64,000 nucleotides of DNA, from assembly GCF_009914755.1 (NCBI RefSeq), contig NC_060948.1. One strand, given 5' to 3'. Position numbers and translations under genes: made by a program. A model generated the notes under the pieces. That model made no database searches and was not told where the DNA came from. It saw only the letters and a list, made by a program, of their open reading frames with translations. This stretch comes from the human T2T-CHM13v2.0 reference genome, Homo sapiens. Every line of letters starts with the position of its first letter. The first letter of the stretch is position 1. Positions 1 to 63,558 of this stretch are shown in pieces.

Positions 1-50
1 GGTCAAAAGGCCTCTCAGTTCCCAGCCCTTCCCAGCCCTAGGCTGCTCGC

Positions 51-2627
51 CTGGCCTCCTCTCTGTTCCGCCTCTAGGGCTGACCCTCTCTCCATGGGAT
101 AGAACTGCAATGGATTGAGCCATAGGCCCTGGCTGATGATCTAGGTGACTGCAGAAGTGGGTCCAGGACAGTTCAGGTGACAGTTCAAAGCCAATTCCCC
201 AGAGACCAAGGAATGGCCAGCTAGGTCCTTTCCCATGATGCCCCACGGCGAACCCCACCTCAGCAATCCTGCCAAAACCCGGGCAGTCATGTTCAGCCAA
301 ACAGCTGAATGAGCTCAGGTAGGAGGTGTACTGCCTGCAGCTGGAGGCTTGACCTTCGTGATCCCAGAACCGCTGGACTGCAGTGGAATGAGACACCCTG
401 TAGCCTGCAGGGAGAGGAGTCAGGAAGGTTCATGCCAGTCCCACCCTCCCACACACCAGCTCCCCTACCATGCTGGGAGGCATTCCTTACCGAGGATGCC
501 AACACAGTGCTCCTTCATGATGATTTCACTGTGGAAATAAAGGTTGGGATGAAAGGAAATCATCCTGCCACCGGTAACCGGGATGGCTGAGTTCCTCCAC
601 CTGCCGGATCAAGGAGAAAGAGGATGGATTCAATGGGACCATCTCAACTAGCCGGGCTGAGGTGGCCTACTAGCTGTAGTGAACCATGAGTTTCCCCTTC
701 CCAGCTCTCCCACTGAGACAACCCTGGTCCCCAGGGGGACCTCAAACTGACTCAGACACTGGACTCCTCCCACAGACCCAGGCTCCCCAGCCTGACCTGC
801 AAATCCATCACGTAGCAAAGCAGGACTTCCGCATGCTTTCCGACCCACGCCGACATCTCGTGTGCCAAACAATCTACCTCTGCGCAAGAACTCTCCAGAG
901 GATTGGGTGGGCAAGCCTCGTGACGCCTTGCAATTTCGCAAGAACACAGACAATGTGGAACAGGGCCATCTCCCAGACATTTGGCCAGTCACCCTTCATT
1001 GTTGGCCCTCTATCTCTGTCTGGCGAGGAGGCAACGCCACAACTGTGGTGGTTTTTGGAGTGGGTGGACCCCGGCCAAGACGGCCTGGGCTGACCAGAGA
1101 CGGGAGGCAGAAAAAGTGGGCAGGTGGTTGCAGCTGAGGGACGGGAGGGACCGGGGGTGGTGTGAGGCGGCTGCTTCTCTGGGTTTCTGAGATGCAGGAG
1201 GCCTTTGTGTGCTGGGTGCTGGACATGCTCCGCTGATGTCCGGGTGTGTGGTGTCCTCTTATCCTAGTCTCCCTGAGGGGTGGGCCTGTCCACCTGAGGG
1301 AAGCCTTGTAGTTAGAAGCCACAGCAGGGTCGTGCCTGGCGCTCTCCAAGGGAATTGCGTGGGTCCAGAGGAAGTTATACAGGCTCAGGGCCTACACGCC
1401 TTTGAGTGCAGCGCCTGCAGTTGGATGAATGCGCATCTGCGGAGCTGGTGCCCGCCGTCAGGTGGTCGGCAGCCCCATGCGCCGCGAACCCGTCTTAAGC
1501 ACCTTGTGTTTCTGGGGTGAGCCTGCTGGAAACAGGCACCGAGAGCAGGGGTGGTTCAATGGCTGGTAATGGCATACAGATTCCCCGTCCTCCAGGGACG
1601 TTCCCAGGGAAACGCGTCCTTCGAATTTGGGCTGTGCGCAAAGGGACCTTGGCGCCGCGATTCTCCCTTGTCAGTGCTGGCCCTGGCTCCCCTTCCCTAC
1701 CACGTGCTCCCAGGGCTGCTACAAGCGAGCTGCCCTCACAGCTGCGGGAACGTGGCCTCGGCTCCCACGCTGTCCCCCATCCCCTGCCTCCTGGCTGACC
1801 CCACGTGCCTCCCACCTGGCTCCTCCCCCCAAACAGCCCCTATACCCCCCGAGGCCCGATGACTATCCCCTGCTGCCCGCCATCCCAAATCGGCAGCCGC
1901 AAGGATATGGCTCTGGCTCACAAGGCGGAGATGCTCTGTGGCCTGGGGCATTCACGGAGCCCAGCTCCAAGTGAAGGACCTCCAGCGAGTCCATTGACGG
2001 CCCCGGTGTGCTCGGTCCAGGGCCAGGCTGTGCCCGCTGGCCCTCCTTCTGCCACCCCACGTCGGGCTCCACCTCAACCACCACCTCCACCTCAGCCATG
2101 ATGTCTTCCACCTTCAGCACCGCCTCCTCTTCCAAGGCCGCCTCCTTGCTCTGTACCCCGGCCGTCCTCTCCAGCATTGCCTCCAGCCTGAACACGGTTT
2201 TCTCCTGGGTGCTCCCACAGACCCTGGGCCTGCGCAGCCCAGCCCAGCCCAGCCCATGCCCCGCACCCGTAGGCTCTGGGGGCCCGCTCCCCAGCAGACC
2301 CGCTCCCTGCAAGACCCACGGGCGTCGCCCTGCTGAGAACCTGGTCCCACACCTACGTGGACCCAGGTTTCCTGAGGAGCTCCGCTGGACCCGCAGATCC
2401 CGCACTGGCCAAAGGGCTCCGGTCCCCAGCAGGCTCAACTGCGCACAGGAGCTCGGGAGCCAGAGGCCCCGGCCCTGGGCTTGCAGAGCCCCACCAACAG
2501 GCACCGCAACCGCTGCTGCGGGTGCGGGAGCCTCTGGGTCGTCAAGGCAGCGCACAACAGCGTGCGCGCAGGCCGACAATGGCCAACCCTGGCGGCTGGC
2601 CTCTGGTGTGCCCAGGGCATAGGACAA
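51..2627 (-). pseudogene. FAM197Y: FAM197Y (CYorf16)-type locus: inverted, degenerate TSPY paralog head-to-head with TSPY
   Basis: Minus-strand segments homologous to TSPY: exon 1 (~2290-1922, [40 protein letters not shown]; 1631-1578, NVPG), exon 2 (873-797), exon 3 (600-491), exon 4 (404-259) and exon 5 (140-51). The symbol comes from knowledge that FAM197Y lies on the opposite strand in each unit. Transcript ends are not determined. Confidence 0.85.
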
Positions 2628-3800
2628 GAGGCCCTTTGGAATGCTCCTTGGAGTACAGCATCCTCAGGGAGGAAGCATGGTACTCGGAGCCTCTATTTGC
2701 CTCGACCTGTGAGAGTGTGTGCCGGGGCTCTGGCCTCTACAGCAGATCAATTCCACCTCAGCACCGGCAGGCGACTTTCCTCCCACGTGCCCGCCCCGAT
2801 CACTTCCCCCAGGACACCCCTGCCGCCCTAGCCCCAGCAACCAGAGAGAGTTCTCTGCATCTGCTGTATTACCTCCGTACCATCTACCTGGCCTGCCTAA
2901 CGAAGAGAGATGTTTCCTGTGTTCATGACACATAGAGATGTTCATGGCTTGCCACACTGAGGATGTCAGGGCACAGGGCTGCCATGCCCACAATTCCAAA
3001 GGCCACGCAGCCCGCGTGTGCCCGGATGCCTAGCTACCCGGCACAAGCTCCAAGGGCTTCTCGGAGGAGGCTTGGGCAGGGAAGGCGGGGGGTGGGGGGG
3101 CTGGAGATGCAGGCCCGCCAGTGGCTGTGCCGCCCAGGGAGACGCCCACCGCCCTCCCATTGACTGGCCACGACGGGAGGAAGTCGGCCTGGGTGCGGCC
3201 CCCCGGCCCTTCGCGCGCAGTCCCTTAGGGGGCGCCTGGAAGCCCGGCGCATGCGCCCTGAGGGCTCGCTGACCTACCGGGTGCCAGAGAGGCTGCGGCA
3301 GGGTTTCTGTGGCGTGGGTCGGGCAGCACAGGCCTTGGTGTGTGCGAGTGCCAAGGAGGGCACCGCCTTCAGGATGGAGGCTGTACAGGAGGGGGCGGCC
3401 GGGGTGGAGAGTGAGCAGGCGGCTTTGGGGGAGGAGGCGGTGCTGCTGTTGGATGACATAATGGCGGAGGTGGAGGTGGTGGCGGAGGAGGAGGGCCTCG
3501 TGGAGCGGCGGGAGGAGGCCCAGCGGGCACAGCAGGCTGTGCCTGGCCCTGGGCCCATGACCCCAGAGTCTGCACTGGAGGAGCTGCTGGCCGTTCAGGT
3601 GGAGCTGGAGCCGGTTAATGCCCAAGCCAGGAAGGCCTTTTCTCGGCAGCGGGAAAAGATGGAGCGGAGGCGCAAGCCCCACCTAGACCGCAGAGGCGCC
3701 GTCATCCAGAGCGTCCCTGGCTTCTGGGCCAATGTTGTATCCTTCTCAGTGTTTCTTCGGCCTTTCTAGTGGAGAGGTGCTCTCGGGGAAGTGTAAGTGA
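1400..3800. promoter_or_regulatory. CpG island / divergent promoter region shared by TSPY and FAM197Y
   Basis: GC- and CpG-dense stretch within otherwise CpG-depleted DNA. GC-box-like motifs (e.g. CCCGCCCC ~2790, GGCGGG ~3084) and no obvious TATA box upstream of ATG 3251. Boundaries estimated by eye. Confidence 0.75.
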
Positions 3801-5813
3801 CCGATGGGCAGCTCGGCGTCGATGTGACTCTTTGGGGAACAAAGGGGAGTTGCCACGGACCAGTGTGGCTGTGGAAAGCCGGAGCAGGCGTGGGTACTAT
3901 TGTCCTGCATGCGGCAGAGAAACCCTTGGTGATGCCGAGCAGCAGACGTTTGGGGCATCTTTTTGAAGAGCAGAAGCGAGTTCAGAGCGGAAGAGGTTTT
4001 TCAGTGAATGAAGCTATTTTTAAGGGAGTGTGATTGCTGCCCCTTGCTAGTCCGATCTGGGACTGGGCGTCTTCGGCTATAAGCAGATTCTGCCACTCCT
4101 CAGACACCAGCAAGTCTCTGCAAATCGCGCCTCCCCATGTCAGTGCAGTCAGCCTCAGAATCATACACCCTCTGTGAACACAGGAGGCCTTAGTTTACGG
4201 GGAGGGGGAGGCGAAAGGAGATCATACGTGGAAGCAGATCTGAGAAATCCCCTACCCCAGCCTCTGGGTGCTCTTAGGCCTTCTTCCCTGTTGCTCCTCG
4301 CTTTCCCTTCCATCGTGTGTAAAGTCTCTTTGACCTAAATCAGATTGCAAACCACCCCCAGATGTCAGCCCTGATCACTGACGAAGATGAAGACATGCTG
4401 AGCTACATGGTCAGCCTGGAGGTGAGGCCAGGAAGACTGGGGCTAGAGGGTTTAGCGGGGGAGGGTAAGGGAAATAATTCATTCCTGTAAGCAAGAGTGA
4501 GCACCTCACCCGAAAACCTATCTAAGCTTTCTCCACCTTGTCCTGACAGGTGGAAGAAGAGAAGCATCCTGTTCATCTCTGCAAGATCATGTTGTTCTTT
4601 CGGAGTAACCCCTACTTCCAGAATAAAGTGATTACCAAGGAATATCTGGTGAACATCACAGGTGACAGGTGGCTCCCAGGATGGGTAGTGGAAGGAAGAT
4701 GGTGGGTGGATCATTGCCAACGGGATCCAGCCCCCTTCCCACAAAAACTCCTGTCTCTGTAGAATACAGGGCTTCTCATTCCACTCCAATTGAGTGGTAT
4801 CCGGATTATGAAGTGGAGGCCTATCGCCGCAGACACCACAACAGCAGCCTTAACTTCTTCAACTGGTTCTCTGACCACAACTTCGCAGGATCTAACAAGA
4901 TTGCTGAGGTGAGTCCTCACTGGGAAACATGAGGAATGACCCCGTGTGTTCCCAGCTGCTTGGGTCACCTTTCTGAGCCCTGATGAGGCCTTTCCCGATT
5001 GAGTCCCCTGACAGATCCTATGTAAGGACCTGTGGCGCAATCCCCTGCAATACTACAAGAGGATGAAGCCACCTGAAGAGGGAACAGAGACGTCAGGTGA
5101 GCCGTTAGTTGGCACTGGAGCTGTTTGATGCCCAGTATAAGGGGGTTGACACACCTGCCTATTCAGGGAGCCTGGGTGCTCATTTCAGAAATGTAGAAAT
5201 TGAGGCTCCTTTCGTACATGTAGAAATTCCTTGAGAGGAAGACAGAGAGTGACAGAATCCAGGACGTTCATGGCATTGGGCTGAAAAGGCACGTTAGAGA
5301 CTGCACTGCAAAGCGGGTGATAGCTGTGGAGTCTTAAGCCCAGTGAAGAATCGTCCATTTCCAGAATCAATGAGAAGTAAAGCTGAAAATCATTCAGTTC
5401 AGTCTGTGGCACTTGATTCCACGGCTGTCAACCCCACCGGCAGTCATCCCACCAACCCCATGAGATTGGGCTCCCTGAATGTGCGTCCTGGTCATCCTTG
5501 CCCCAAACCACAAAGGACTGTTTAGATTGATGGATTTCCTTAAGCTGTTGCCCCATCAGACTTGTGTGTGCTTTTAGGGCCCAGTGCATCTTGTTAGCTG
5601 ACTCCCCTCACAGACAATACTGGGAATGGGGCAGGGATTGCGCAGAACAGTTTGTAACACGTGGTAGGAGGAAGTTTAAGGGATCACAAATGGGGAAGGG
5701 ATATCCTTTTCTCAGCGGGCCCCACAATTGAAACATTTCAAAGTATGGCTCAGAGAAAATGCGTTTTAACATGAGTTTGTGTTTCTCTAGGGGACTCCCA
5801 GTTGTTGAGTTGA
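3251..5813 (+). CDS. TSPY: Testis-specific Y-encoded protein (SET/NAP family), 308 aa, 6 exons
   Basis: Exons 3251-3736, 4344-4421, 4550-4661, 4763-4908, 5015-5096, 5791-5813, all with GT-AG introns. Total 927 nt = 308 aa + TGA: [18 protein letters not shown]...FWANV|[10 protein letters not shown]...|[12 protein letters not shown]...|[12 protein letters not shown]...|[14 protein letters not shown]...|GDSQLLS*. Carries L109 and E190. The paralog number cannot be assigned from the window. Confidence 0.97.
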
Positions 5814-5984
5814 ATATGATGGAGCATCAGATTTTACCTAATACAGCAGAACTCCTAAAAAGTTACAGCCATATGCAGGACGGCAGTACTCAGCATGGTC
5901 TTTATGCACAGGAACTAAAGGAAAAAGAGATCGAGTCACAAAAATTCAGGAAGAGGGGGTAAATGTGGATTGTATGGAATGAAA

Positions 5985-5990
5985 AATAAA
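5985..5990 (+). terminator. TSPY polyadenylation signal AATAAA
   Basis: Lies ~170 nt after the stop codon and is followed by a GT-rich downstream element. Confidence 0.85.
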
Positions 5991-6002
5991 CATTCTCAAG
6001 GA

Positions 6003-6038
6003 TGTGTGACTCTGTGTCTGTGTGTGTGTGTGTGTCTT

Positions 6039-6070
<32 letters not shown>
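6003..6070 (+). repeat. Interrupted (TG)n microsatellite just 3' of the TSPY poly(A) signal (copies ~26320-26387, ~46637-46704)
   Basis: Directly visible TG runs with TC/TT interruptions. Confidence 0.95.

Positions 6071-19186: not shown

Positions 19187-19235
<49 letters not shown>
18985..19235 (+). repeat. Alu 3' fragment followed by two (CA)n microsatellites (~19087-19119, ~19189-19235; copies ~39287-39535, ~59603-59849)
   Basis: GAGGTTGCAGTGATCTGAGA...GCAGCCTGGATGACACAGTGAGACTCC, then CA runs whose lengths differ among units. Confidence 0.88.
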
Positions 19236-19237
<2 letters not shown>

Positions 19238-20367
19238 TCCTTGAAAACGAAAGTTCCACAAGGGCAAAACAAGAAAACAAATTTAACACCCCCCAAAGAA
19301 AGTACAAAGAGTAACCTCAAAAGAACTGCAGGGGAAAACAATTCAAAATTTACAAGTATCTACCCTAAAAGAAGCTGAAAGTCCCTCAAAAACTTTCCAG
19401 AGGCCATGTCCTTGTATTACAAAAATGATCATAAAAACTGGCAGGAGTAGACGAATAGAAATGCATCTTAAAACTTGCTAAACCCTTCAAGTCTCCCATA
19501 AGAATTGTAATGGAAAATGGATCGGTCGGCAGCTTTTTCCATACAATTATGAACAAATTATATTTCTTCATACATAGATTTGTTTTTTCAATATTCTAAG
19601 GAATTAACTTTTATATTAATAGTAGGTGATGTAAGAAAGCAGGCCTTTATCAAGATAACTGACACTGGATGTCCATACCATTACTCAGGTGGGCCTTAAT
19701 TCCCAGCCGGGTTCCCTCCCTGGACACACACTGAAGGTCCCCAGCCATTTGGCAATCTCTTCACATTCCCAGCCCTGGAGGTAGCCCTAAAATACATGTA
19801 CCTGAAGAAAATAAAACATTGCCTCACACTGGAGCCCAGTGTGGTCCTCCAGATTCCGTGTGAGGTGGACTAACTTATATGGGAAGGCAGGGCAGCGGGA
19901 GTGAGGATGGCAGAGAGGATTACACATGTCAAGGCAGCCGGGGTCATGGAAACAAAACATGACTGGCCTGGGAGAAACACTGTGAAAGGACATACACCTA
20001 GGTGGGCCTCAGGTGGACATCCTCGTGGAGAAAAAGGGGGCCCTGGTTGATCTCAAAATGAGCCCCAGGTGGTAGCAGGTCTTACCGCAGGGCAGGGAGC
20101 TGGCGAGTAATGATGAGACAGCTATCCCTTAAGCCCTGCTTGTCACCCACTGACTTTAGCCACATATGCATCATAGTGGCTTAAGGTGCCCCGATCCTGA
20201 AATGTGGGTGTTACATGTCCCTGATGGGCCTCTCTCCCCCAACCCACGGATTGCCTGGGATTGCTCACTGCAGTCTCCTCCCGGATCCTTGGGTTCTCCA
20301 TGTGGGGCCCAGATCCAGGTCAAAAGGCCTCTCAGTTCCCAGCCCTTCCCAGCCCTAGGCTGCTCGC

Positions 20368-22944
20368 CTGGCCTCCTCTCTGTTCCGCCTCTAGGGCTGA
20401 CCCTCTCTCCATGGGATAGAACTGCAATGGATTGAGCCATAGGCCCTGGCTGATGATCTAGGGGACTGCAGAAGTGGGTCCAGGACAGTTCAGGTGACAG
20501 TTCAAAGCCAATTCCCCAGAGACCAAGGAATGACCAGCTAGGTCCTTTCCCATGATGCCCCACGGCGAACCCCACCTCAGCAATCCTGCCAAAACCCGGG
20601 CAGTCATGTTCAGCCAAACAGCTGAATGAGCTCAGGTAGGAGGTGTACTGCCTGCAGCTGGAGGCTTGACCTTCGTGATCCCAGAACCGCTGGACTGCAG
20701 TGGAATGAGACACCCTGTAGCCTGCAGGGAGAGGAGTCAGGAAGGTTCATGCCAGTCCCACCCTCCCACACACCAGCTCCCCTACCATGCTGGGAGGCAT
20801 TCCTTACCGAGGATGCCAACACAGTGCTCCTTCATGATGATTTCACTGTGGAAATAAAGGTTGGGATGAAAGGAAATCATCCTGCCACCGGTAACCGGGA
20901 TGGCTGAGTTCCTCCACCTGCCGGATCAAGGAGAAAGAGGATGGATTCAATGGGACCATCTCAACTAGCCGGGCTGAGGTGGCCTACTAGCTGTAGTGAA
21001 CCATGAGTTTCCCCTTCCCAGCTCTCCCACTGAGACAACCCTGGTCCCCAGGGGGACCTCAAACTGACTCAGACACTGGACTCCTCCCACAGACCCAGGC
21101 TCCCCAGCCTGACCTGCAAATCCATCACGTAGCAAAGCAGGACTTCCGCATGCTTTCCGACCCACGCCGACATCTCGTGTGCCAAACAATCTACCTCTGC
21201 GCAAGAACTCTCCAGAGGATTGGGTGGGCAAGCCTCGTGACGCCTTGCAATTTCGCAAGAACACAGACAATGTGGAACAGGGCCATCTCCCAGACATTTG
21301 GCCAGTCACCCTTCATTGTTGGCCCTCTATCTCTGTCTGGCGAGGAGGCAACGCCACAACTGTGGTGGTTTTTGGAGTGGGTGGACCCCGGCCAAGACGG
21401 CCTGGGCTGACCAGAGACGGGAGGCAGAAAAAGTGGGCAGGTGGTTGCAGCTGAGGGACGGGAGGGGCCGGGGGTGGTGTGAGGCGGCTGCTTCTCTGAG
21501 TTTCTGAGATGCAGGAGGCCTTTGTGTGCTGGGTGCTGGACATGCTCCGCTGATGTCCGGGTGTGTGGTGTCCTCTTATCCTAGTCTCCCTGAGGGGTGG
21601 GCCTGTCCACCTGAGGGAAGCCTTGTAGTTAGAAGCCACAGCAGGGTCGTGCCTGGCGCTCTCCAAGGGAATTGCGCGGGTCCAGAGGAAGTTATACAGG
21701 CTCAGGGCCTACACGCCTTTGAGTGCAGCGCCTGCAGTTGGATGAATGCGCATCTGCGGAGCTGGTGCCCGCCGTCAGGTGGTCGGCAGCCCCATGCGCC
21801 GCGAACCCGTCTTAAGCACCTTGTGTTTCTGGGGTGAGCCTGCTGGAAACAGGCACCGAGAGCAGGGGTGGTTCAATGGCTGGTAATGGCATACAGATTC
21901 CCCGTCCTCCAGGGACGTTCCCAGGAAAACGCGTCCTTCGAATTTGGGCTGTGCGCAAAGGGACCTTGGCGCCGCGATTCTCCCTTGTCAGTGCTGGCCC
22001 TGGCTCCCCTTCCCTACCACGTGCTCCCAGGGCTGCTACAAGCGAGCTGCCCTCACAGCTGCGGGAACGTGGCCTCGGCTCCCACGCTGTCCCCCATCCC
22101 CTGCCTCCTGGCTGACCCCACGCGCCTCCCACCTGGCTCCTCCCCCCAAACAGCCCCCATACCCCCCGAGGCCCGATGACTATCCCCTGCTGCCCGCCGT
22201 CCCAAATCGGCAGCCGCAAGGATATGGCTCTGGCTCACAAGGCGGAGATGCTCTGTGGCCTAGGGCATTCACGGAGCCCAGCTCCAAGTGAAGGACCTCC
22301 AGCGAGTCCATTGACGGCCCCGGTGTGCTCGGTCCAGGGCCAGGCTGTGCCCGCTGGCCCTCCTTCTGCCACCCCACGTCGGGCTCCACCTCAACCACCA
22401 CCTCCACCTCAGCCATGATGTCTTCCACCTTCAGCACCGCCTCCTCTTCCAAGGCCGCCTCCTTGCTCTGTACCCCGGCCGTCCTCTCCAGCATTGCCTC
22501 CAGCCTGAACACGGTTTTCTCCTGGGTGCTCCCACAGACCCTGGGCCTGCGCAGCCCAGCCCAGCCCAGCCCATGCCCCGCACCCGTAGGCTCTGGGGGC
22601 CCGCTCCCCAGCAGACCCGCTCCCTGCAAGACCCACGGGCGTCGCCCTGCTGTGAACCTGGTCCCACACCTACGTGGACCCAGGTTTCCTGAGGAGCTCC
22701 GCTGGACCCGCAGATCCCGCACTGGCCAAAGGGCTCCGGTCCCCAGCAGGCTCAACTGCGCACAGGAGCTCGGGAGCCAGAGGCCCCGGCCCTGGGCTTG
22801 CAGAGCCCCACCAACAGGCACCGCAACCGCTGCTGCGGGTGCGGGAGCCTCTGGGTCGTCAAGGCAGCGCACAACAGCGTGCGCGCAGGCCGACAATGGC
22901 CAACCCTGGCGGCTGGCCTCTGGTGTGCCCAGGGCATAGGACAA
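20368..22944 (-). pseudogene. FAM197Y: FAM197Y-type inverted TSPY paralog, unit 2
   Basis: Copy of 51-2627 at offset +20317. Exon homologs at 22239-~22607, 21895-21948, 21114-21190, 20808-20917, 20576-20721, 20368-20457. Confidence 0.85.
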
Positions 22945-26307: not shown

Positions 26308-29048
26308 CATTCTCAAGGATGTGTGACTCTGTGTCTGTGTGTGTGTGTGTGTCTTTGTGTTTGTGTGTGTGTGTGTCTGTGTGTGTATGTTTATCCACTT
26401 TATTCGGGTGTCATAATGAATTGATCAATCCACGTGCTTTATTCTCTTCATGGAAATAACCAGTCTGCGTTGGAGCTGGGCCTCTAAAGTTGTAGAGTGA
26501 ATGGGTGTGGGATGTGTTGGGATTCTTCCTACAGGACAGAGTGGGAGAGGTAAAAGCAAAAGACAGCTTAGTTGGAGGCTGACTTCGTCCTATGGAAGCA
26601 GAGATAGTTCAAGGAAAGGGGTTACTGGGTTTCCAGGGCCCAGTTTGCTGGGACCTCCAAAATCCTTCATTTTGGGTATCATCATACACAGTAGCTAAGC
26701 ACAGGATGATGGAAATCTTAAAGTTCGCTTTCGTGTTGAATCCACATGTTCTTTTAAAGGTGAATGCATGATCCTTTTCTGGGACAATCAGCCTCTCAGG
26801 ACTTCTGAAACATCAACGTGAGAAGAAATGGGCATGTAAGGTGTATGGAGGGACTGTGGGAAAGGTGACAGAGGCATGTGGGAAGGCATTCAGGATACGC
26901 TTTTGGCAGAGATGACTAAGGGAAAACAGAAACTTACAGAAGTGAGGGGAAAGGGGGTGGATTAGTGGAATATAAGATTGTTGGAGAATCCATCCATGGA
27001 CTCTCTTGTCACTTGATGACCCAGGATATGGACACTCTTGTTGATGTTTACATCTTTAGTTGTTTTAAGCTTTTCTCCAAGATTCTGTGTTAGGTGAGGA
27101 GCCAATAACGTATGTAGCTAACAACAGTACGAGTGCATTTTGTGCTCTTGCAAAGTCTAGTGAGGCTCTATTCTCCCTCGTGATTGGCACTGCAGATTGT
27201 ATCTGGACCCAGGGCCCCTAAATTTTCTGTGGCCTCTTCAGCATAGTTTGCCTAAGGTTTAGAACGTAAAGCGAATATAGTTGCGGAATATGTTTTGCAA
27301 GCCTCACACAGGAGGACAAAACATACAGCTTTCATTCGCGAGTGGGAGGCTGCTTCCCAGGAACACGTGTGTCTGCACAAGACAAGGGGTTGCCTCTGTC
27401 AAGGATGGGGCAGGAGGATTTCAGTGTCGGAGGCAGAACTTTCTTTCCTGTTCCCAGATGAAACAGTTCCAACACGAGCATCCATGTTGACCACACGCTA
27501 CTAGAGTGCTAACATTGCTGTCCTGTATAGACTCCAGTCAGCACAGCTTCTGTGAGAAGAGCTATGTTGTTTCAGGGAAGAGGGTTTGACAGTCAAAGTT
27601 CCTGAATCTGTTGTGGTGCCTGCAATATGCATTCTACCCCTCCTGCTCGGTGTCAAAGCAGTTGAGCTTTGAAAATCTATCGCCCGGTTTTGTCCCTGCT
27701 CCTATGCAGACCTCTGAAGCTCTGGAGCGGGAGTCTTGTCCTCCTCTGACTACCGTCCCCCTGACCCACAAACACAGGAGAAACAGGTGTTCTAAGCAAA
27801 TTATTCTGAAAACAGTCGGAACACTTTGGCCCCCTCAAGCTGCCCTCTATCCTACTGTGTGCATGTCAAAGACACTGTGGTCCAGTACGGTATCCCTATA
27901 GCGGCAATGGGGCAACAGATTGGTGTGTGCACTCTGGGCAACTCAGATTAGGAAACATCTGGGGAGTTGCCTATAACGAGGTCGTCTTAAAACGTGTTGC
28001 CCCAAATTTAAGGCATAGGAAAATGTTGAGGAAAGGGTCTTGCAATGATTTTTCTAGGAGGTAAATAGATAAGAAAATGACCGTAAATAGATGCCAGGGC
28101 TAGTTTTGGAGCTAGCCTTTTTTAAAGTGGTGGTAGGGGAGGAGGTTTTTCCAAGGCAGGTAGCAAACCAGGAACTGTCTACGATGGATGGGCGTGCCAT
28201 GGGTTGGTGGCTCAGCCATATTGCCACCCCACGGAGTCGATGCAGCAGACTGGGCTTCTTGCTTGAATCCTACGTGCAATTCAGTCTAGTGATTTCACAT
28301 GAGATCCCTTCTTCTGGTATTATCACAGATCGTGCTGAATTATACAGGCTGTGTAATGCTTCTTCCACTGAATATCCGTGCACGTGGGCCACAGATGCTA
28401 AGGGCACTGACAAATTTGCACCGTGCCTCAGTAACTCGGAAGCACATCTGTGATTTGTACCGACAGGGACTTGGTGTCTTTTCGTGTTTAAAGTAGCACG
28501 TGTGTGTTTGTGGTTGCGTATGTTTATTTCTCTGTGCGGGTTTGTATATTTTCTCTGACTCCACCTATGTCTCCGTGGTTCCGATATTTTTCCACACTCC
28601 CTGCGACAATTTGCACATGCCTATCTCTACAACCATTGTAGACTTTGTATCTGTGTCTTTGAACATCTGTCACTCTCTCTCCCTTCCTTTTTTCTTTTCC
28701 TTCCTTTACACCCCTCCTTTCATCCTTCCCTTGCTTCCCCACCACACTCTCTCCATCTGTATCGTCTATCTTTCTATTCTCTATCTGGGTTTACTTTCTA
28801 ATTCTGAATTCAAGGGCATTGAATTGAAAAGAAGCACTCTTCGTACTTTTATGTGTTTTAACTCATTTGGGGAATTTGGCGTGGTATTATTTACAGGGTT
28901 CTCTCTGCCCTTTCTCATTGTTCTCCCCAGCCGGGGCTGTTATTATGTGAAAGCTGGTTTCCTTCATCACATCGCGTAGGCTCTAATGATGTTTCGTTTA
29001 TTTTGATTCTCCTCACACTACATAGTTTTAATTTACCTAATGTGACTG

Positions 29049-40667: not shown

Positions 40668-43244
40668 CTGGCCTCCTCTCTGTTCCGCCTCTAGGGCTGA
40701 CCCTCTCTCCATGGGATAGAACTGCAATGGATTGAGCCATAGGCCCTGGCTGATGATCTAGGTGACTGCAGAAGTGGGTCCAGGACAGTTCAGGTGACAG
40801 TTCAAAGCCAATTCCCCAGAGACCAAGGAATGACCAGCTAGGTCCTTTCCCATGATGCCCCACGGCGAACCCCACCTCAGCAATCCTGCCAAAACCCGGG
40901 CAGTCATGTTCAGCCAAACAGCTGAATGAGCTCAGGTAGGAGGTGTACTGCCTGCAGCTGGAGGCTTGACCTTCGTGATCCCAGAACCGCTGGACTGCAG
41001 TGGAATGAGACACCCTGTAGCCTGCAGGGAGAGGAGTCAGGAAGGTTCATGCCAGTCCCACCCTCCCACACACCAGCTCCCCTACCATGCTGGGAGGCAT
41101 TCCTTACCGAGGATGCCAACACAGTGCTCCTTCATGATGATTTCACTGTGGAAATAAAGGTTGGGATGAAAGGAAATCATCCTGCCACCGGTAACCGGGA
41201 TGGCTGAGTTCCTCCACCTGCCGGATCAAGGAGAAAGAGGATGGATTCAATGGGACCATCTCAACTAGCCGGGCTGAGGTGGCCTACTAGCTGTAGTGAA
41301 CCATGAGTTTCCCCTTCCCAGCTCTCCCACTGAGACAACCCTGGTCCCCAGGGGGACCTCAAACTGACTCAGACACTGGACTCCTCCCACAGACCCAGGC
41401 TCCCCAGCCTGACCTGCAAATCCATCACGTAGCAAAGCAGGACTTCCGCATGCTTTCCGACCCACGCCGACATCTCGTGTGCCAAACAATCTACCTCTGC
41501 GCAAGAACTCTCCAGAGGATTGGGTGGGCAAGCCTCGTGACGCCTTGCAATTTCGCAAGAACACAGACAATGTGGAACAGGGCCATCTCCCAGACATTTG
41601 GCCAGTCACCCTTCATTGTTGGCCCTCTATCTCTGTCTGGCGAGGAGGCAACGCCACAACTGTGGTGGTTTTTGGAGTGGGTGGACCCCGGCCAAGACGG
41701 CCTGGGCTGACCAGAGACGGGAGGCAGAAAAAGTGGGCAGGTGGTTGCAGCTGAGGGACGGGAGGGACCGGGGGTGGTGTGAGGCGGCTGCTTCTCTGGG
41801 TTTCTGAGATGCAGGAGGCCTTTGTGTGCTGGGTGCTGGACATGCTCCGCTGATGTCCGGGTGTGTGGTGTCCTCTTATCCTAGTCTCCCTGAGGGGTGG
41901 GCCTGTCCACCTGAGGGAAGCCTTGTAGTTAGAAGCCACAGCAGGGTCGTGCCTGGCGCTCTCCAAGGGAATTGCGTGGGTCCAGAGGAAGTTATACAGG
42001 CTCAGGGCCTACACGCCTTTGAGTGCAGCGCCTGCAGTTGGATGAATGCGCATCTGCGGAGCTGGTGCCCGCCGTCAGGTGGTCGGCAGCCCCATGCGCC
42101 GCGAACCCGTCTTAAGCACCTTGCGTTTCTGGGGTGAGCCTGCTGGAAACAGGCACCGAGAGCAGGGGTGGTTCAATGGCTGGTAATGGCATACAGATTC
42201 CCCGTCCTCCAGGGACGTTCCCAGGGAAACGCGTCCTTCGAATTTGGGCTGTGCGCAAAGGGACCTTGGCGCCGCGATTCTCCCTTGTCAGTGCTGGCCC
42301 TGGCTCCCCTTCCCTACCACGTGCTCCCAGGGCTGCTACAAGCGAGCTGCCCTCACAGCTGCGGGAACGTGGCCTCGGCTCCCACGCTGTCCCCCATCCC
42401 CTGCCTCCTGGCTGACCCCACGTGCCTCCCACCTGGCTCCTCCCCGCAAACAGCCCCCATACCCCCCGAGGCCCGATGACTATCCCCTGCTGCCCGCCAT
42501 CCCAAATCGGCAGCCGCAAGGATATGGCTCTGGCTCACAAGGCGGAGATGCTCTGTGGCCTGGGGCATTCACGGAGCCCAGCTCCAAGTGAAGGACCTCC
42601 AGCGAGTCCATTGACGGCCCCGGTGTGCTCGGTCCAGGGCCAGGCTGTGCCCGCTGGCCCTCCTTCTGCCACCCCACGTCGGGCTCCACCTCAACCACCA
42701 CCTCCACCTCAGCCATGATGTCTTCCACCTTCAGCACCGCCTCCTCTTCCAAGGCCGCCTCCTTGCTCTGTACCCCGGCCGTCCTCTCCAGCATTGCCTC
42801 CAGCCTGAACACGGTTTTCTCCTGGGTGCTCCCACAGACCCTGGGCCTGCGCAGCCCAGCCCAGCCCAGCCCATGCCCCGCACCCGTAGGCTCTGGGGGC
42901 CCGCTCCCCAGCAGACCCGCTCCCTGCAAGACCCACGGGCGTCGCCCTGCTGTGAACCTGGTCCCACACCTACGTGGACCCAGGTTTCCTGAGGAGCTCC
43001 GCTGGACCCGCAGATCCCGCACTGGCCAAAGGGCTCCGGTCCCCAGCAGGCTCAACTGCGCACAGGAGCTCGGGAGCCAGAGGCCCCGGCCCTGGGCTTG
43101 CAGAGCCCCACCAACAGGCACCGCAACCGCTGCTGCGGGTGCGGGAGCCTCTGGGTCGTCAAGGCAGCGCACAACAGCGTGCGTGCAGGCCGACAATGGC
43201 CAACCCTGGCGGCTGGCCTCTGGTGTGCCCAGGGCATAGGACAA
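40668..43244 (-). pseudogene. FAM197Y: FAM197Y-type inverted TSPY paralog, unit 3
   Basis: Copy of 51-2627 at offset +40617. Confidence 0.85.
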
Positions 43245-44435
43245 GAGGCCCTTTGGAATGCTCCTTGGAGTACAGCATCCTCAGGGAGGAAGCATGGTAC
43301 TCGGAGCCTCTATTTGCCTCGACCTGTGAGAGTGTGTGCCGGGGCTCTGGCCTCTACAGCAGATCAATTCCACCTCAGCACCGGCAGGCGACTTTCCTCC
43401 CACGTGCCCGCCCCGATCACTTCCCCCAGGACACCCCTGCCGCCCTAGCCCCAGCAACCAGAGAGAGTTCTCTGCATCTGCTGTATTACCTCCGTACCAT
43501 CTACCTGGCCTGCCTAACGAAGAGAGATGTTTCCTGTGTTCATGACACATAGAGATGTTCATGGCTTGCCACACTGAGGATGTCAGGGCACAGGGCTGCC
43601 ATGCCCACAATTCCAAAGGCCACGCAGCCCGCGTGTGCCCGGATGCCTAGCTACCCGGCACAAGCTCCAAGGGCTTCTCGGAGGAGGCTTGGGCAGGGAA
43701 GGCGGGGGGTGGGGGGGCTGGAGATGCAGGCCCGCCAGTGGCTGTGCCGCCCAGGGAGACGCCCACCGCCCTCCCATTGACTGGCCACGACGGGAGGAAG
43801 TCGGCCTGGGTGCGGCCCCCCGGCCCTTCGCGCGCAGTCCCTTAGGGGGCGCCTGGAAGCCCGGCGCATGCGCCCTGAGGGCTCGCTGACCTACCGGGTG
43901 CCAGAGAGGCTGCGGCAGGGTTTCTGTGGCGTGGGTCGGGCAGCACAGGCCTTGGTGTGTGCGAGTGCCAAGGAGGGCACCGCCTTCAGGATGGAGGCTG
44001 TACAGGAGGGGGCGGCCGGGGTGGAGAGTGAGCAGGCGGCTTTGGGGGAGGAGGCGGTGCTGCTGTTGGATGACATAATGGCGGAGGTGGAGGTGGTGGC
44101 GGAGGTGGAGGTGGTGGCGGAGGAGGAGGGCCTCGTGGAGCGGCGGGAGGAGGCCCAGCGGGCACAGCAGGCTGTGCCTGGCCCTGGGCCCATGACCCCA
44201 GAGTCTGCACTGGAGGAGCTGCTGGCCGTTCAGGTGGAGCTGGAGCCGGTTAATGCCCAAGCCAGGAAGGCCTTTTCTCGGCAGCGGGAAAAGATGGAAC
44301 GGAGGCGCAAGCCCCACCTAGACCGCAGAGGCGCCGTCATCCAGAGCGTCCCTGGCTTCTGGGCCAATGTTGTATCCTTCTCAGTGTTTCTTCGGCCTTT
44401 CTAGTGGAGAGGTGCTCTCGGGGAAGTGTAAGTGA
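42017..44435. promoter_or_regulatory. CpG island / divergent promoter, unit 3
   Basis: Paralogous copy of 1400-3800. Confidence 0.75.
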
Positions 44436-60981: not shown

Positions 60982-63558
60982 CTGGCCTCCTCTCTGTTCC
61001 GCCTCTAGGGCTGACCCTCTCTCCATGGGATAGAACTGCAATGGATTGAGCCATAGGCCCTGGGTGATGATCTAGGTGACTGCAGAAGTGGGTCCAGGAC
61101 AGTTCAGGTGACAGTTCAAAGCCAATTCCCCAGAGACCAAGGAATGACCAGCTAGGTCCTTTCCCATGATGCCCCACGGCGAACCCCACCTCAGCAATCC
61201 TGCCAAAACCCGGGCAGTCATGTTCAGCCAAACAGCTGAATGAGCTCAGGTAGGAGGTGTACTGCCTGCAGCTGGAGGCTTGACCTTCGTGATCCCAGAA
61301 CCGCTGGACTGCAGTGGAATGAGACACCCTGTAGCCTGCAGGGAGAGGAGTCAGGAAGGTTCATGCCAGTCCCACCCTCCCACACACCAGCTCCCCTACC
61401 ATGCTGGGAGGCATTCCTTACCGAGGATGCCAACACAGTGCTCCTTCATGATGATTTCACTGTGGAAATAAAGGTTGGGATGAAAGGAAATCATCCTGCC
61501 ACCGGTAACCGGGATGGCTGAGTTCCTCCACCTGCCGGATCAAGGAGAAAGAGGATGGATTCAATGGGACCATCTCAACTAGCCGGGCTGAGGTGGCCTA
61601 CTAGCTGTAGTGAACCATGAGTTTCCCCTTCCCAGCTCTCCCACTGAGACAACCCTGGTCCCCAGGGGGACCTCAAACTGACTCAGACACTGGACTCCTC
61701 CCACAGACCCAGGCTCCCCAGCCTGACCTGCAAATCCATCACGTAGCAAAGCAGGACTTCCGCATGCTTTCCGACCCACGCCGACATCTCGTGTGCCAAA
61801 CAATCTACCTCTGCGCAAGAACTCTCCAGAGGATTGGGTGGGCAAGCCTCGTGACGCCTTGCAATTTCGCAAGAACACAGACAATGTGGAACAGGGCCAT
61901 CTCCCAGACATTTGGCCAGTCACCCTTCATTGTTGGCCCTCTATCTCTGTCTGGCGAGGAGGCAACGCCACAACTGTGGTGGTTTTTGGAGTGGGTGGAC
62001 CCCGGCCAAGACGGCCTGGGCTGACCAGAGACGGGAGGCAGAAAAAGTGGGCAGGTGGTTGCAGCTGAGGGACGGGAGGGGCCGGGGGTGGTGTGAGGCG
62101 GCTGCTTCTCTGAGTTTCTGAGATGCAGGAGGCCTTTGTGTGCTGGGTGCTGGACATGCTCCGCTGATGTCCGGGTGTGTGGTGTCCTCTTATCCTAGTA
62201 TCCCTGAGGGGTGGGCCTGTCCACCTGAGGGAAGCCTTGTAGTTAGAAGCCACAGCAGGGTCGTGCCTGGCGCTCTCCAAGGGAATTGCGTGGGTCCAGA
62301 GGAAGTTATACAGGCTCAGGGCCTACACGCCTTTGAGTGCAGCGCCTGCAGTTGGATGAATGCGCATCTGCGGAGCTGGTGCCCGCCGTCAGGTGGTCGG
62401 CAGCCCCATGCGCCGCGAACCCGTCTTAAGCACCTTGCGTTTCTGGGGTGAGCCTGCTGGAAACAGGCACCGAGAGCAGGGGTGGTTCAATGGCTGGTAA
62501 TGGCATACAGATTCCCCGTCCTCCAGGGACGTTCCCAGGGAAACGCGTCCTTCGAATTTGGGCTGTGCGCAAAGGGACCTTGGCGCCGCGATTCTCCCTT
62601 GTCAGTGCTGGCCCTGGCTCCCCTTCCCTACCACGTGCTCCCAGGGCTGCTACAAGCGAGCTGCCCTCACAGCTGCGGGAACGTGGCCTCGGCTCCCACG
62701 CTGTCCCCCATCCCCTGCCTCCTGGCTGACCCCACGTGCCTCCCACCTGGCTCCTCCCCGCAAACAGCCCCCATACCCCCCGAGGCCCGATGACTATCCC
62801 CTGCTGCCCGCCATCCCAAATCGGCAGCCGCAAGGATATGGCTCTGGCTCACAAGGCGGAGATGCTCTGTGGCCTGGGGCATTCACGGAGCCCAGCTCCA
62901 AGTGAAGGACCTCCAGCGAGTCCATTGACGGCCCCGGTGTGCTCGGTCCAGGGCCAGGCTGTGCCCGCTGGCCCTCCTTCTGCCACCCCACGTCGGGCTC
63001 CACCTCAACCACCACCTCCACCTCAGCCATGATGTCTTCCACCTTCAGCACCGCCTCCTCTTCCAAGGCCGCCTCCTTGCTCTGTACCCCGGCCGTCCTC
63101 TCCAGCATTGCCTCCAGCCTGAACACGGTTTTCTCCTGGGTGCTCCCACAGACCCTGGGCCTGCGCAGCCCAGCCCAGCCCAGCCCATGCCCCGCACCCG
63201 TAGGCTCTGGGGGCCCGCTCCCCAGCAGACCCGCTCCCTGCAAGACCCACGGGCGTCGCCCTGCTGTGAACCTGGTCCCACACCTACGTGGACCCAGGTT
63301 TCCTGAGGAGCTCCGCTGGACCCGCAGATCCCGCACTGGCCAAAGGGCTCCGGTCCCCAGCAGGCTCAACTGCGCACAGGAGCTCGGGAGCCAGAGGCCC
63401 CGGCCCTGGGCTTGCAGAGCCCCACCAACAGGCACCGCAACCGCTGCTGCGGGTGCGGGAGCCTCTGGGTCGTCAAGGCAGCGCACAACAGCGTGCGCGC
63501 AGGCCGACAATGGCCAACCCTGGCGGCTGGCCTCTGGTGTGCCCAGGGCATAGGGCAA
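60982..63558 (-). pseudogene. FAM197Y: FAM197Y-type inverted TSPY paralog, unit 4
   Basis: Copy of 51-2627 at offset +60931. The partner TSPY ATG would fall at ~64180, outside the window. Confidence 0.85.

What the first reader, a model, noticed from the sequence alone, without database searches (positions are those of the whole stretch)
51..2290. FAM197Y locus is an exon-by-exon inverted TSPY paralog with splice sites retained
On the minus strand the TSPY exon series reappears at matching boundaries. Exon 2-like, 873-797 (77 vs 78 nt): EMSAWVGKHAEVLLCYVMDLQ|gtcagg vs [21 protein letters not shown]|gtgagg. Exon 3-like, 600-491 (110 vs 112 nt): cag|VEELSHP...FHPNLYFHSEIIMKEHCVGIL|gtaagg vs VEEEKHP...[21 protein letters not shown]. 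Exon 4-like, 404-259 (146 vs 146 nt, fully open): YRVSHSTAVQRFWD...FGRIAE|gtgggg vs [14 protein letters not shown]...SNKIAE. Exon 5-like, 140-51: IISQGLWLNPLQFY vs [14 protein letters not shown], with donor GCGAGC vs GTGAGC. The repeat unit is therefore an ancient head-to-head gene pair from a genomic (intron-retaining) inverted duplication. As far as I recall, FAM197Y is usually treated as a lncRNA or pseudogene. Some TSPY similarity may already be annotated, but the full exon correspondence is read here directly from sequence. Retained splice signals despite strong protein divergence suggest long-lasting constraint (inference).
Basis: partly seen in the sequence, partly recalled or inferred. 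Interest (0 to 1): 0.8.

Follow-up and report, generated by a model that had tools for sequence, protein, structure and literature searches.

The report
Inverted dead TSPY copy beside TSPY
Each unit of the human Y-chromosome TSPY array carries, back to back with the working TSPY gene, an old broken TSPY copy that still has its introns, and the FAM197Y non-coding RNAs reuse its old splice sites; this is a useful annotation point but an ordinary kind of object.

Summary
On the minus strand of window 51-2249 lies a collinear copy of TSPY exons 1-5 and introns 2-4. Every segment beats shuffles, and each matches only its own partner. Intron positions and phases coincide. All four minus-strand lncRNA models in the hub table use these junctions.

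It is a pseudogene. It has a 76-nt deletion in exon 1, an exon-1 donor changed from GT to AT, a frameshifted exon 3, a 1-nt loss in exon 2 and a GC donor after exon 5.

In the whole genome the same head-to-head pair recurs at 6 diverged Y loci that I fetched. Seven solo copies form its sister group. A tree places this inverted-plus-solo lineage inside the Y-linked TSPY clade, after the split from X-linked TSPX. The two groups share the exon-3 frameshift and the lost exon-1 donor, so the lineage was already dead at their split.

Splice dinucleotides in these dead copies changed at the exonic rate. I found no printed statement that FAM197Y derives from TSPY, but key older papers are not held. 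Interest is modest.

The parts
1909..2249 (-). Exon-1-like piece of the inverted TSPY pseudogene. It has a 76-nt internal deletion with its junction at 1939|1938.
   Evidence: tblastn gave 50% identity over 112 aa, E 3e-26. blastn gave 72.8% over 313 nt. The deletion and the exon end come from the alignment with TSPY, TSPX and the solo copies.
1863..2177 (-). A 104-aa ATG ORF inside the exon-1-like piece. The frame is open from 2249.
   Evidence: the ORF listing. Its downstream end reads past the 76-nt deletion into former intron sequence.
874..1908 (-). Intron-1-like stretch. Its donor has changed from GT to AT at 1908-1907, and its acceptor AG lies at 875-874. It is about 1035 nt against 607 nt in TSPY.
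   Evidence: The first bases after the exon align with the conserved start of TSPY and TSPX intron 1. The body shows no significant similarity to TSPY intron 1. It is 72-73% identical to the solo copies throughout.
797..873 (-). Exon-2-like piece, 77 nt against 78. One base is missing near the 5' end.
   Evidence: The 1-nt loss is present only in 3 of the 6 inverted-type copies examined.
601..796 (-). Intron-2-like stretch, 196 nt against 128.
   Evidence: z 4.8, with 0 of 300 shuffles reaching the score. Diagonal cell 4.7.
491..600 (-). Exon-3-like piece, 110 nt against 112. It combines a +1 insertion shared with all inverted and solo copies and a later 3-nt loss.
405..490 (-). Intron-3-like stretch, 86 nt against 101.
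   Evidence: 58% identity, z 6.7. Diagonal cell 6.9.
259..404 (-). Exon-4-like piece, 146 nt against 146, ungapped and open. It is identical in extent to exon 2 of FAM197Y4 and FAM197Y3 in the neighbouring units.
   Evidence: 66% identity, z 13.3. blastn gave 67.9% over 165 nt. The hub table exons 20576-20721 and 40876-41021 minus offsets 20317 and 40617 give the match.
141..258 (-). Intron-4-like stretch, 118 nt against 106.
   Evidence: z 4.5. Diagonal cell 4.3.
51..140 (-). Exon-5-like piece with a GC donor in place of GT.
   Evidence: Its peptide aligns with TSPX exon 5 over 27 aa (E 9e-6), which is longer than TSPY's own exon 5 does (16 aa).
2250..3314 (.). Spacer between the two arms. 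It holds the TSPY promoter, the 5' UTR and the first 64 nt of the CDS, and has no counterpart in the inverted copy.
   Evidence: No significant similarity was found. It is GC-rich, with CpG o/e 0.45-0.64 outside 2801-3000 (0.21).
3237..6002 (+). Functional TSPY copy (LOC124909294), the comparison partner.
   Evidence: Hub table. CDS translated.
19887..22566 (-). The same pseudogene module in the next unit, shown at its full detectable length. Homology with the solo copies continues about 480 nt past the exon-5-like piece.
   Evidence: Offsets. Extent, which gives -430 to 2241 in unit-1 numbering.
40668..42866 (-). Third copy in the window (exon-5-like to exon-1-like, offset 40617).
   Evidence: window place 42540-42812. 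It differs from copy 1 at 4 of 2199 positions.
60982..63180 (-). Fourth copy in the window (offset 60931).
   Evidence: window place 62854-63126.

Best explanation
Window 51-2249 (minus strand) is an unprocessed TSPY pseudogene. It lies head to head with the working TSPY gene in every unit of the array.

It belongs to an old, Y-specific side branch of the TSPY family. That branch split from the coding TSPY line after the split from X-linked TSPX. The branch also left solo dead copies elsewhere on the Y.

The branch was already disabled before the inverted and solo forms parted. Both forms share a lost exon-1 donor and a +1 frameshift in exon 3. The inverted form then lost 76 nt of exon 1. The array copies later lost one base in exon 2 and three in exon 3, and their exon-5 donor changed to GC.

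The broken gene is still transcribed in part. The FAM197Y and LOC lncRNA models start inside it and splice at its inherited exon 2/3/4 junctions. FAM197Y then runs on into repeat-derived exons.

Shown here: the homology, the collinearity, the lesions, the tree and the coincidence of annotated junctions. Inferred: the lncRNA splice use is inheritance (exaptation) rather than something selection has kept, and the RNA has no demonstrated function.
For: Homology and collinearity, introns included.

Same intron positions and phases in TSPY, TSPX and the inverted copy (exons of 78/112/146 nt in TSPY and TSPX).

Lesions.
- The +1 in exon 3 appears in the alignment in all 6 inverted-type copies and in the 6 solo copies with a usable exon 3. 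Later indels mask it in 6 of the 12 lengths.
- The exon-1 donor is not GT in 4 of 4 inverted-type and 4 of 4 solo copies aligned.

Genome-wide picture:
- 45 array places match the inverted exon 1 at 89-91%, each about 1.4 kb from a TSPY exon 1 on the other strand.
- Head-to-head pairs occur at 6 further loci and solo copies at 7. These were 13 Y loci that I chose by hand from the 145 matches.
- The pairs are collinear with the array unit from about 1.3 kb beyond the pseudogene to the TSPY start, at 82-94% identity.

Tree of exons 2-5 (25 rows, 386 columns):
- Y clade 100/99
- coding-type group 100/99
- inverted plus solo 100/100
- inverted 98/95
- solo 100/99

AU tests reject three alternatives: TSPY with TSPX (p 6.6e-4), the side branch with TSPX (p 6.6e-4), and TSPY with the inverted group to the exclusion of the solos (p 5.4e-4).

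The path from the split to the tip is about twice as long on the side branch (about 0.39) as on the TSPY line (about 0.19).

Splice dinucleotides change at the exonic rate.

Junction use by the 4 of 4 annotated minus-strand lncRNA models: hub table.

FAM197Y2P was detected by RT-qPCR in normal testis (PMC4815804, passages read).
Against: Some signals hint that the side branch was not simply neutral.
- The ratio of branch length at codon positions 1+2 to position 3 is 0.53 on the shared stem. It is also 0.51 within the inverted group, whose members are all broken. The coding-type and solo groups give 1.03 and 1.09.
- Minimum changes by codon position in the inverted group are 33/30/56 (p 0.0066). 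Outside CpG sites they are 22/23/39 (p 0.03). I cannot explain this.
- All 8 internal splice sites appear to have survived the shared stem of 0.245 substitutions per site. My own calculation gives a chance of about 0.02 for no change at 16 positions. This suggests a functional period after the duplication.

Other limits:
- Expression and junction use rest on the hub's RefSeq table and one paper, not on reads that I saw.
- Pfam could not confirm a NAP domain on single exons. True TSPY exon 4 also fails, and only true TSPY exon 3 hits, at E 1.3e-4.
Confidence: 0.87

Rival explanations
1. The inverted copy, or at least its splice signals, has been kept by selection for a long time because the spliced FAM197Y RNA has a function.
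For: - 15 of 16 splice-site bases of exons 2-5 match TSPY despite 34-44% exon divergence.
- The copy is present in all 45 array units and in all 6 dispersed pairs examined.
- There is a third-position excess within the inverted group.
- It is transcribed in testis (PMC4815804 passages).
Against: - Splice positions changed as often as exonic sites in the dead copies. The counts are 4 against 5.0 and 6 against 6.3.
- Dispersed dead copies keep 6-8 of 8 canonical sites, the same as the array copy's 7 of 8.
- FAM197Y skips the exon-5-like piece, and none of the 4 models uses the exon-1 donor (hub table).
- Presence in every unit follows from array homogenisation and needs no selection on this part.
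Confidence: 0.1
2. The exon-1-like ORF (104 aa from ATG, frame open for 128 codons) encodes a real small protein, the old 'putative protein' reading of CYorf16/FAM197Y.
For: - The ORF is open.
- 26 ORFs of this type, at 49-99% identity, sit in the public protein collection.
Against: - None of the four annotated transcripts in the window includes 1863-2177. Their starts are at 1771 or inside the exon-3-like piece (hub table).
- The ORF's C-terminus is frameshifted former exon and intron sequence.
- The collection holds only open ORFs, so finding them open carries no weight.
- RefSeq calls the genes lncRNA.
Confidence: 0.04
3. The similarity comes from recent gene conversion or palindrome-like arm exchange between TSPY and its neighbour, not from an old duplication.
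For: - Exon 1 is more similar (73%) than exons 2-5 (56-66%), with a 30-column peak of 90%.
- Chimeric ORFs that are part inverted-type and part TSPY-type exist in the public collection: P0012, P0013 and P0019.
Against: - Arm identity is far below that of Y palindromes, as I recall them.
- The inverted and coding types are cleanly separated at all 6 pair loci and in the tree.
- P0019 has no exact copy in this genome; the best match is 91%. Such chimeras can be assembly artefacts.
Confidence: 0.03

Closest known systems
TSPY (coding copies of the DYZ5 array) and its X homologue TSPX/TSPYL2
   Same: - Same exon order, intron positions and phases for exons 2-5.
- Same conserved start of intron 1.
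- Clusters inside the Y-linked TSPY clade.
   Different: - No promoter or first 17 or so codons.
- A 76-nt exon-1 deletion, a lost exon-1 donor, frameshifts in exons 2 and 3, and no detectable exon 6.
- 34-44% nucleotide divergence in exons 2-5.
Dispersed high-divergence TSPY pseudogenes on the human Y. The T2T-Y preprint describes these as a branch apart from the coding copies (10.1101/2022.12.01.518724, passages read).
   Same: - The seven solo copies I fetched are the sister group of the inverted copy.
- They are 72-73% identical to it over about 2400 nt, introns included.
- They share its exon-3 frameshift and lost exon-1 donor.
   Different: - The solo copies keep the exon-1 tail and have no TSPY partner next to them.
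- I could not check whether these loci are the ones annotated as TSPYnP.
Transcribed unprocessed pseudogenes that give rise to lncRNAs
   Same: A dead gene copy whose inherited splice sites are used by non-coding transcripts that start internally and add new downstream exons (hub table).
   Different: Nothing essential differs. The unusual feature is the roughly 45-fold copy number that comes from sitting inside a tandem array.
Y-chromosome palindromes and inverted repeats kept alike by arm-to-arm gene conversion
   Same: Two related gene copies in inverted orientation, about 1 kb apart.
   Different: Arm identity is only 56-73%, and one arm is dead. There is no sign of homogenisation between the arms.

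Membership tests
TSPY gene family (Y-linked NAP-domain genes), as an unprocessed paralog | Significant similarity to TSPY coding exons, in order | tested here: met
   Five of five exon counterparts were found. Exon 6 was not found.
TSPY gene family (Y-linked NAP-domain genes), as an unprocessed paralog | Introns at the same positions and phases as TSPY and TSPX | tested here: met
   The acceptor of intron 1 and both ends of introns 2-4 coincide. So do the donor after exon 5 (now GC) and the exon-1 donor position (now AT).
TSPY gene family (Y-linked NAP-domain genes), as an unprocessed paralog | Placement within the TSPY clade relative to TSPX and the TSPYL retrogenes | tested here: met
   Y clade supported 100/99. 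AU tests reject the alternatives at p below 0.001.
TSPY gene family (Y-linked NAP-domain genes), as an unprocessed paralog | Recognisable NAP domain (Pfam PF00956) | tested here: inconclusive
   No single-exon translation of the copy hits. The true TSPY exons 1 and 4 also fail, and only true exon 3 hits, below the cut-off. I did not submit a joined conceptual translation.
Pseudogene | Reading frame or splice signals disrupted | tested here: met
   Found here: a 76-nt deletion, a GT to AT exon-1 donor, a +1 then -3 in exon 3, a -1 in exon 2 and a GC donor. The promoter and start codon region is missing.
Pseudogene-derived lncRNA | Annotated or observed transcripts built on the pseudogene's exons | tested here: met
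   Coordinates of 4 of 4 minus-strand lncRNA models coincide with the exon-like boundaries (hub table, offsets). I saw no RNA reads. RT-qPCR in testis is reported in PMC4815804 (passages).
Pseudogene-derived lncRNA | Evidence of function or selection on the RNA | tested here: not met
   Splice-site positions change at the exonic rate. The codon-position oddity is unexplained and is not evidence for RNA function.
Y palindrome / gene-converting inverted repeat | Near-identical arms | tested here: not met
   56-73% identity. The near-identity of true palindrome arms is recalled, not checked here.

The most novel reading that the evidence does not exclude
The inverted-plus-solo lineage may be the human remnant of a second TSPY subfamily that already existed in early placental mammals. 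This would be the one reported as still expressed in cat (TSPY1a/c, about 64% identical to TSPY1b) and said to be closer to the cattle gene (PMC6280758, passages read). FAM197Y would then be the dead ortholog of a gene that still works in other orders.

The depth of the split fits loosely. On the TSPY line, the branch from the X-Y split to the duplication (0.16) is about as long as the branch from the duplication to the present (0.19).
Probability: 0.2. Interest if true: 0.55.

Novelty: new member of a known kind. Interest (0 to 1): 0.3.

Why it matters
- It gives FAM197Y/CYorf16 an origin. Two of its four exons are TSPY exons 3 and 4 of a dead paralog, so "FAM197" is not an independent family.
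- Every array unit holds two TSPY-family members, not one. This matters for read mapping, copy-number assays and primer design in the TSPY array, and for annotating TSPY pseudogenes on complete Y assemblies.
- The shared lesions give markers for ordering the events: side branch dies, then the solo/inverted split, then the 76-nt deletion, then dispersal of pairs, then array-specific indels.
- It does not change what is known about TSPY function.

Tried and rejected
- Harsh local DNA scoring found only exons 1, 4 and 5. Softer global alignment with shuffles was needed for exons 2 and 3 and the introns.
- No exon-6, intron-5, intron-1 or promoter counterpart was found.
- Two candidate remnants of the exon-1 tail, at 1442-1422 and 1002-976, were not significant. 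I dropped them once the alignment showed a clean 76-nt deletion.
- Pfam on single exons was uninformative.
- The first pairwise dN/dS run (0.53 over 211 codons) had one segment, exon 3, misregistered by a codon. It also cannot separate the two lineages, so I do not lean on it.
I used codon-position branch lengths and site counts instead.
- The (GT)n match between the TSPY 3' end and 19189-19247 is a microsatellite and not evidence of homology.
- Skaletsky 2003 is not held, and I did not look up Manz 1993.
- Literature searches for FAM197Y (18 papers), CYorf16 (5), DYZ5+TSPY+pseudogene (8), TSPY+inverted+pseudogene+repeat unit (25, 20 listed), TSPY+bidirectional promoter (12) and TSPY+head-to-head (26, 12 listed) gave no statement that the unit holds an inverted TSPY-derived copy. 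I read only passages of 11 papers, not whole texts. bioRxiv supplements, such as the T2T-Y repeat tables with the five "fam-*" models, were not seen and may cover this stretch.
Full report
**What is there**

The window is part of the human Y TSPY (DYZ5) array. Its units are 20,300-20,317 bases long.

I translated the window's own TSPY CDS (3251..5813, joined in a script) and searched it against window 1-3236. The minus strand gave four hits:
- exon 1 at 2249-1932 (50% of 112 residues, E 3e-26)
- exon 4 at 402-256
- exon 3 at 563-495
- exon 5 at 140-60 (the last three share a sum E of 1e-10)

At the DNA level, blastn sees exon 1 (72.8% over 313 nt) and exon 4 with 16 nt of the preceding intron (67.9% over 165 nt).

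All seven segments (exons 2-5, introns 2-4) score above 300 of 300 shuffles, with z between 4.5 and 13.3.

Next I aligned every TSPY segment against every inverted segment. Each matches only its own partner. The 7 diagonal cells give z 4.3-14.4, and the 42 off-diagonal cells reach at most 3.0.

Exon 2 is the weakest piece. Its peptide's best match anywhere in three frames of 601-1945 is exactly the claimed 859-797, above 200 of 200 shuffles.

**Boundaries**

TSPY, X-linked TSPX (fetched as L009) and the inverted copy have exons 2, 3 and 4 of 78/112/146, 78/112/146 and 77/110/146 nt. They have the same phases and AG...GT borders.

The donor after the exon-5-like piece is GC.

An alignment of exon 1 and the start of intron 1 shows a clean 76-nt deletion in the exon-1 tail, with its junction at window 1939|1938. 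The aligned copies were TSPX, two coding-type copies, four solo copies and four inverted copies. The last 30 nt of the exon are retained up to 1909. The first intron bases are conserved between TSPY and TSPX and recognisable here, but the donor reads AT.

Homology with TSPY starts only at TSPY 3302-3315. The promoter, the 5' UTR and the first 17 or so codons have no counterpart. Intron 1, intron 5 and exon 6 also have none.

**It is a pseudogene, and an old one**

The window's genome is searchable as a whole. A public ORF of the inverted exon-1 type (P0006) finds 145 places, all on the Y. Of these, 45 lie in the array (89-91% identity), each about 1.4 kb from a TSPY exon 1 on the other strand. 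The rest are dispersed.

I fetched 13 dispersed Y loci, chosen by hand, plus TSPX. I scored them with the exon peptides of both types.

Six loci hold the same head-to-head pair:
- L011, L013, L014 and L017 have exons 1-5 on both sides.
- L015 has only exon 1 of the inverted copy.
- L016 has a truncated TSPY side.

In every pair the inverted member matches the inverted exons (52-100%) far better than the TSPY exons. In exon 4, for example, the figures are 79-94% against 35-40%.

Seven loci (L010, L012, L018-L022) hold solo copies that are closer to the inverted type. These are 72-73% identical to the inverted copy over about 2400 nt, introns included. The similarity stops at the same 5' point as the similarity with TSPY.

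I built an ML tree of exons 2-5 with five TSPYL retrogenes as outgroup (25 rows, 386 columns). Two rows were left out: I_L015 and T_L016. S_L012 was only 33% filled. The tree gives the following support:

| Group | Support |
|---|---|
| All Y copies together | 100/99 |
| Coding type | 100/99 |
| Inverted plus solo | 100/100 |
| Inverted | 98/95 |
| Solo | 100/99 |

AU tests reject three alternatives. The last grouping was named after I had seen the tree.
- TSPY with TSPX: p 6.6e-4
- The side branch with TSPX: p 6.6e-4
- TSPY with the inverted group, excluding the solos: p 5.4e-4

Two lesions are shared by the inverted and solo groups:
- Exon 3 carries a +1 insertion relative to TSPY, TSPX and all five TSPYLs. 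It appears in the alignment in all 12 copies with a usable exon 3. Exon 3 is 113 nt in 6 of them; in the other 6, later indels change the length, giving 110 nt in the two array-type copies.
- The exon-1 donor is AT or AC in 8 of 8 copies aligned.

The 76-nt deletion is in 4 of 4 inverted copies aligned and in 0 of 4 solo copies. The 1-nt loss in exon 2 is in only 3 of 6 inverted copies.

The order of events is therefore: duplication, death of the side branch, solo/inverted split, 76-nt deletion, dispersal of pairs, array-specific indels.

**Constraint**

I tested this in three ways.

- Within each group I counted the minimum changes at the 16 splice-site bases and compared them with the per-site rate in the exons. 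The counts are inverted 4 against 5.0 expected, solo 6 against 6.3, and coding-type group 4 against 4.8.
- The array copy keeps 7 of 8 canonical sites. Other inverted copies keep 6-8, and solo copies with all four exons keep 6-7. Retention in the array copy needs no selection.
- The earlier past is less clear. All eight internal sites seem to have survived the shared stem of 0.245 substitutions per site; by my arithmetic, no change at 16 bases has a chance of about 0.02. The stem's ratio of codon positions 1+2 to position 3 is 0.53. Both hint that the side branch worked for a while.

The same low ratio (0.51) appears within the inverted group, whose members are all broken. The third-position excess there (33/30/56, p 0.0066; outside CpG 22/23/39, p 0.03) is unexplained. 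The copy also lacks a promoter and start from its earliest visible state. I leave open whether it was ever functional.

**Transcription**

I subtracted the unit offsets 20317, 40617 and 60931 from the hub table.
- FAM197Y4 and FAM197Y3 have exon 1 ending at the exon-3-like donor (491) and exon 2 equal to the exon-4-like piece (404-259). They then skip the exon-5-like piece and splice to two exons 1.3 and 5 kb on, which overlap masked repeats.
- The two LOC models use 797, 600, 491 and 404.

All 4 of 4 minus-strand models use TSPY-homologous junctions. None includes the exon-1-like ORF.

FAM197Y2P was detectable in normal testis by RT-qPCR and reduced in embryonal carcinoma (PMC4815804, passages). 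I saw no reads myself.

**Known or new**

Reviews call the neighbour of TSPY the "CYorf16 pseudogene transcription unit" (PMC3954084, passage). One paper describes it as an "antisense ORF" reported by Skaletsky 2003 (PMC6280758, passage).

The T2T-Y preprint describes each unit as one gene plus five new repeat models and retroelements. It notes that most TSPY pseudogenes form a branch apart from the coding copies (10.1101/2022.12.01.518724, passages).

None of the passages I read says that the neighbour is itself a TSPY copy. None of six searches found such a statement. Skaletsky 2003 is not held, I did not look up Manz 1993, and the bioRxiv supplements were not seen. The 50% protein match of the exon-1 ORF to TSPY would show up in any BLAST, so database curators may well know it.

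I rate this as a new member of a known kind, a transcribed unprocessed pseudogene, and of modest interest.

Noticed in passing
Public proteins P0012, P0013, P0019; the window's genome: The public protein collection holds exon-1 ORFs that are chimeras, part inverted type and part TSPY type, with different switch points. P0019 has no exact copy in this genome; the best match is 91%. They may be exchange products in other Y chromosomes or species, or short-read assembly artefacts at shared words.
   Followed up: partly
Tree branches: The stem of the coding TSPY group has more change at codon positions 1+2 than at position 3 (ratio 1.44). TSPX gives 0.36. This looks like fast protein change on the TSPY line after the duplication. 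A preprint likewise reports no detectable purifying selection on TSPY in apes (10.1101/2024.04.02.587783, passage).
   Followed up: no
Inverted-type copies at window 51-873 and loci L011, L013, L014, L016, L017: There is an excess of change at former third codon positions among copies that are all frameshifted (33/30/56, p 0.0066). It is weaker but still present outside CpG sites. It is unexplained.
   Followed up: partly
window 3520-3528 (TSPY exon 1): The array TSPY copy has a 9-nt insertion in exon 1 relative to the one dispersed coding-type copy aligned (L014), the inverted copies and the solo copies.
   Followed up: no
window 43985-44386 and other array units: Array TSPY exon-1 frames come in two lengths, 201 and 207 residues open. 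This is an 18-nt length difference between units. The longer form includes the unit annotated TSPY1 in this window.
   Followed up: no
window 5993-6051 / 26310-26368 and 19189-19247: (GT)n microsatellites lie at the TSPY 3' end and, inverted, about 1.1 kb beyond the exon-5-like piece. These were the only other inverted self-match of the unit. It is probably coincidence.
   Followed up: no
L009 (X chromosome, TSPX) against window 51-140: In several places the dead copy keeps states shared with TSPX that the working TSPY has lost. Examples are the exon-5 peptide (27 aa alignable against 16), the bases after the exon-4 donor, and the exon-2 end and donor.
   Followed up: partly
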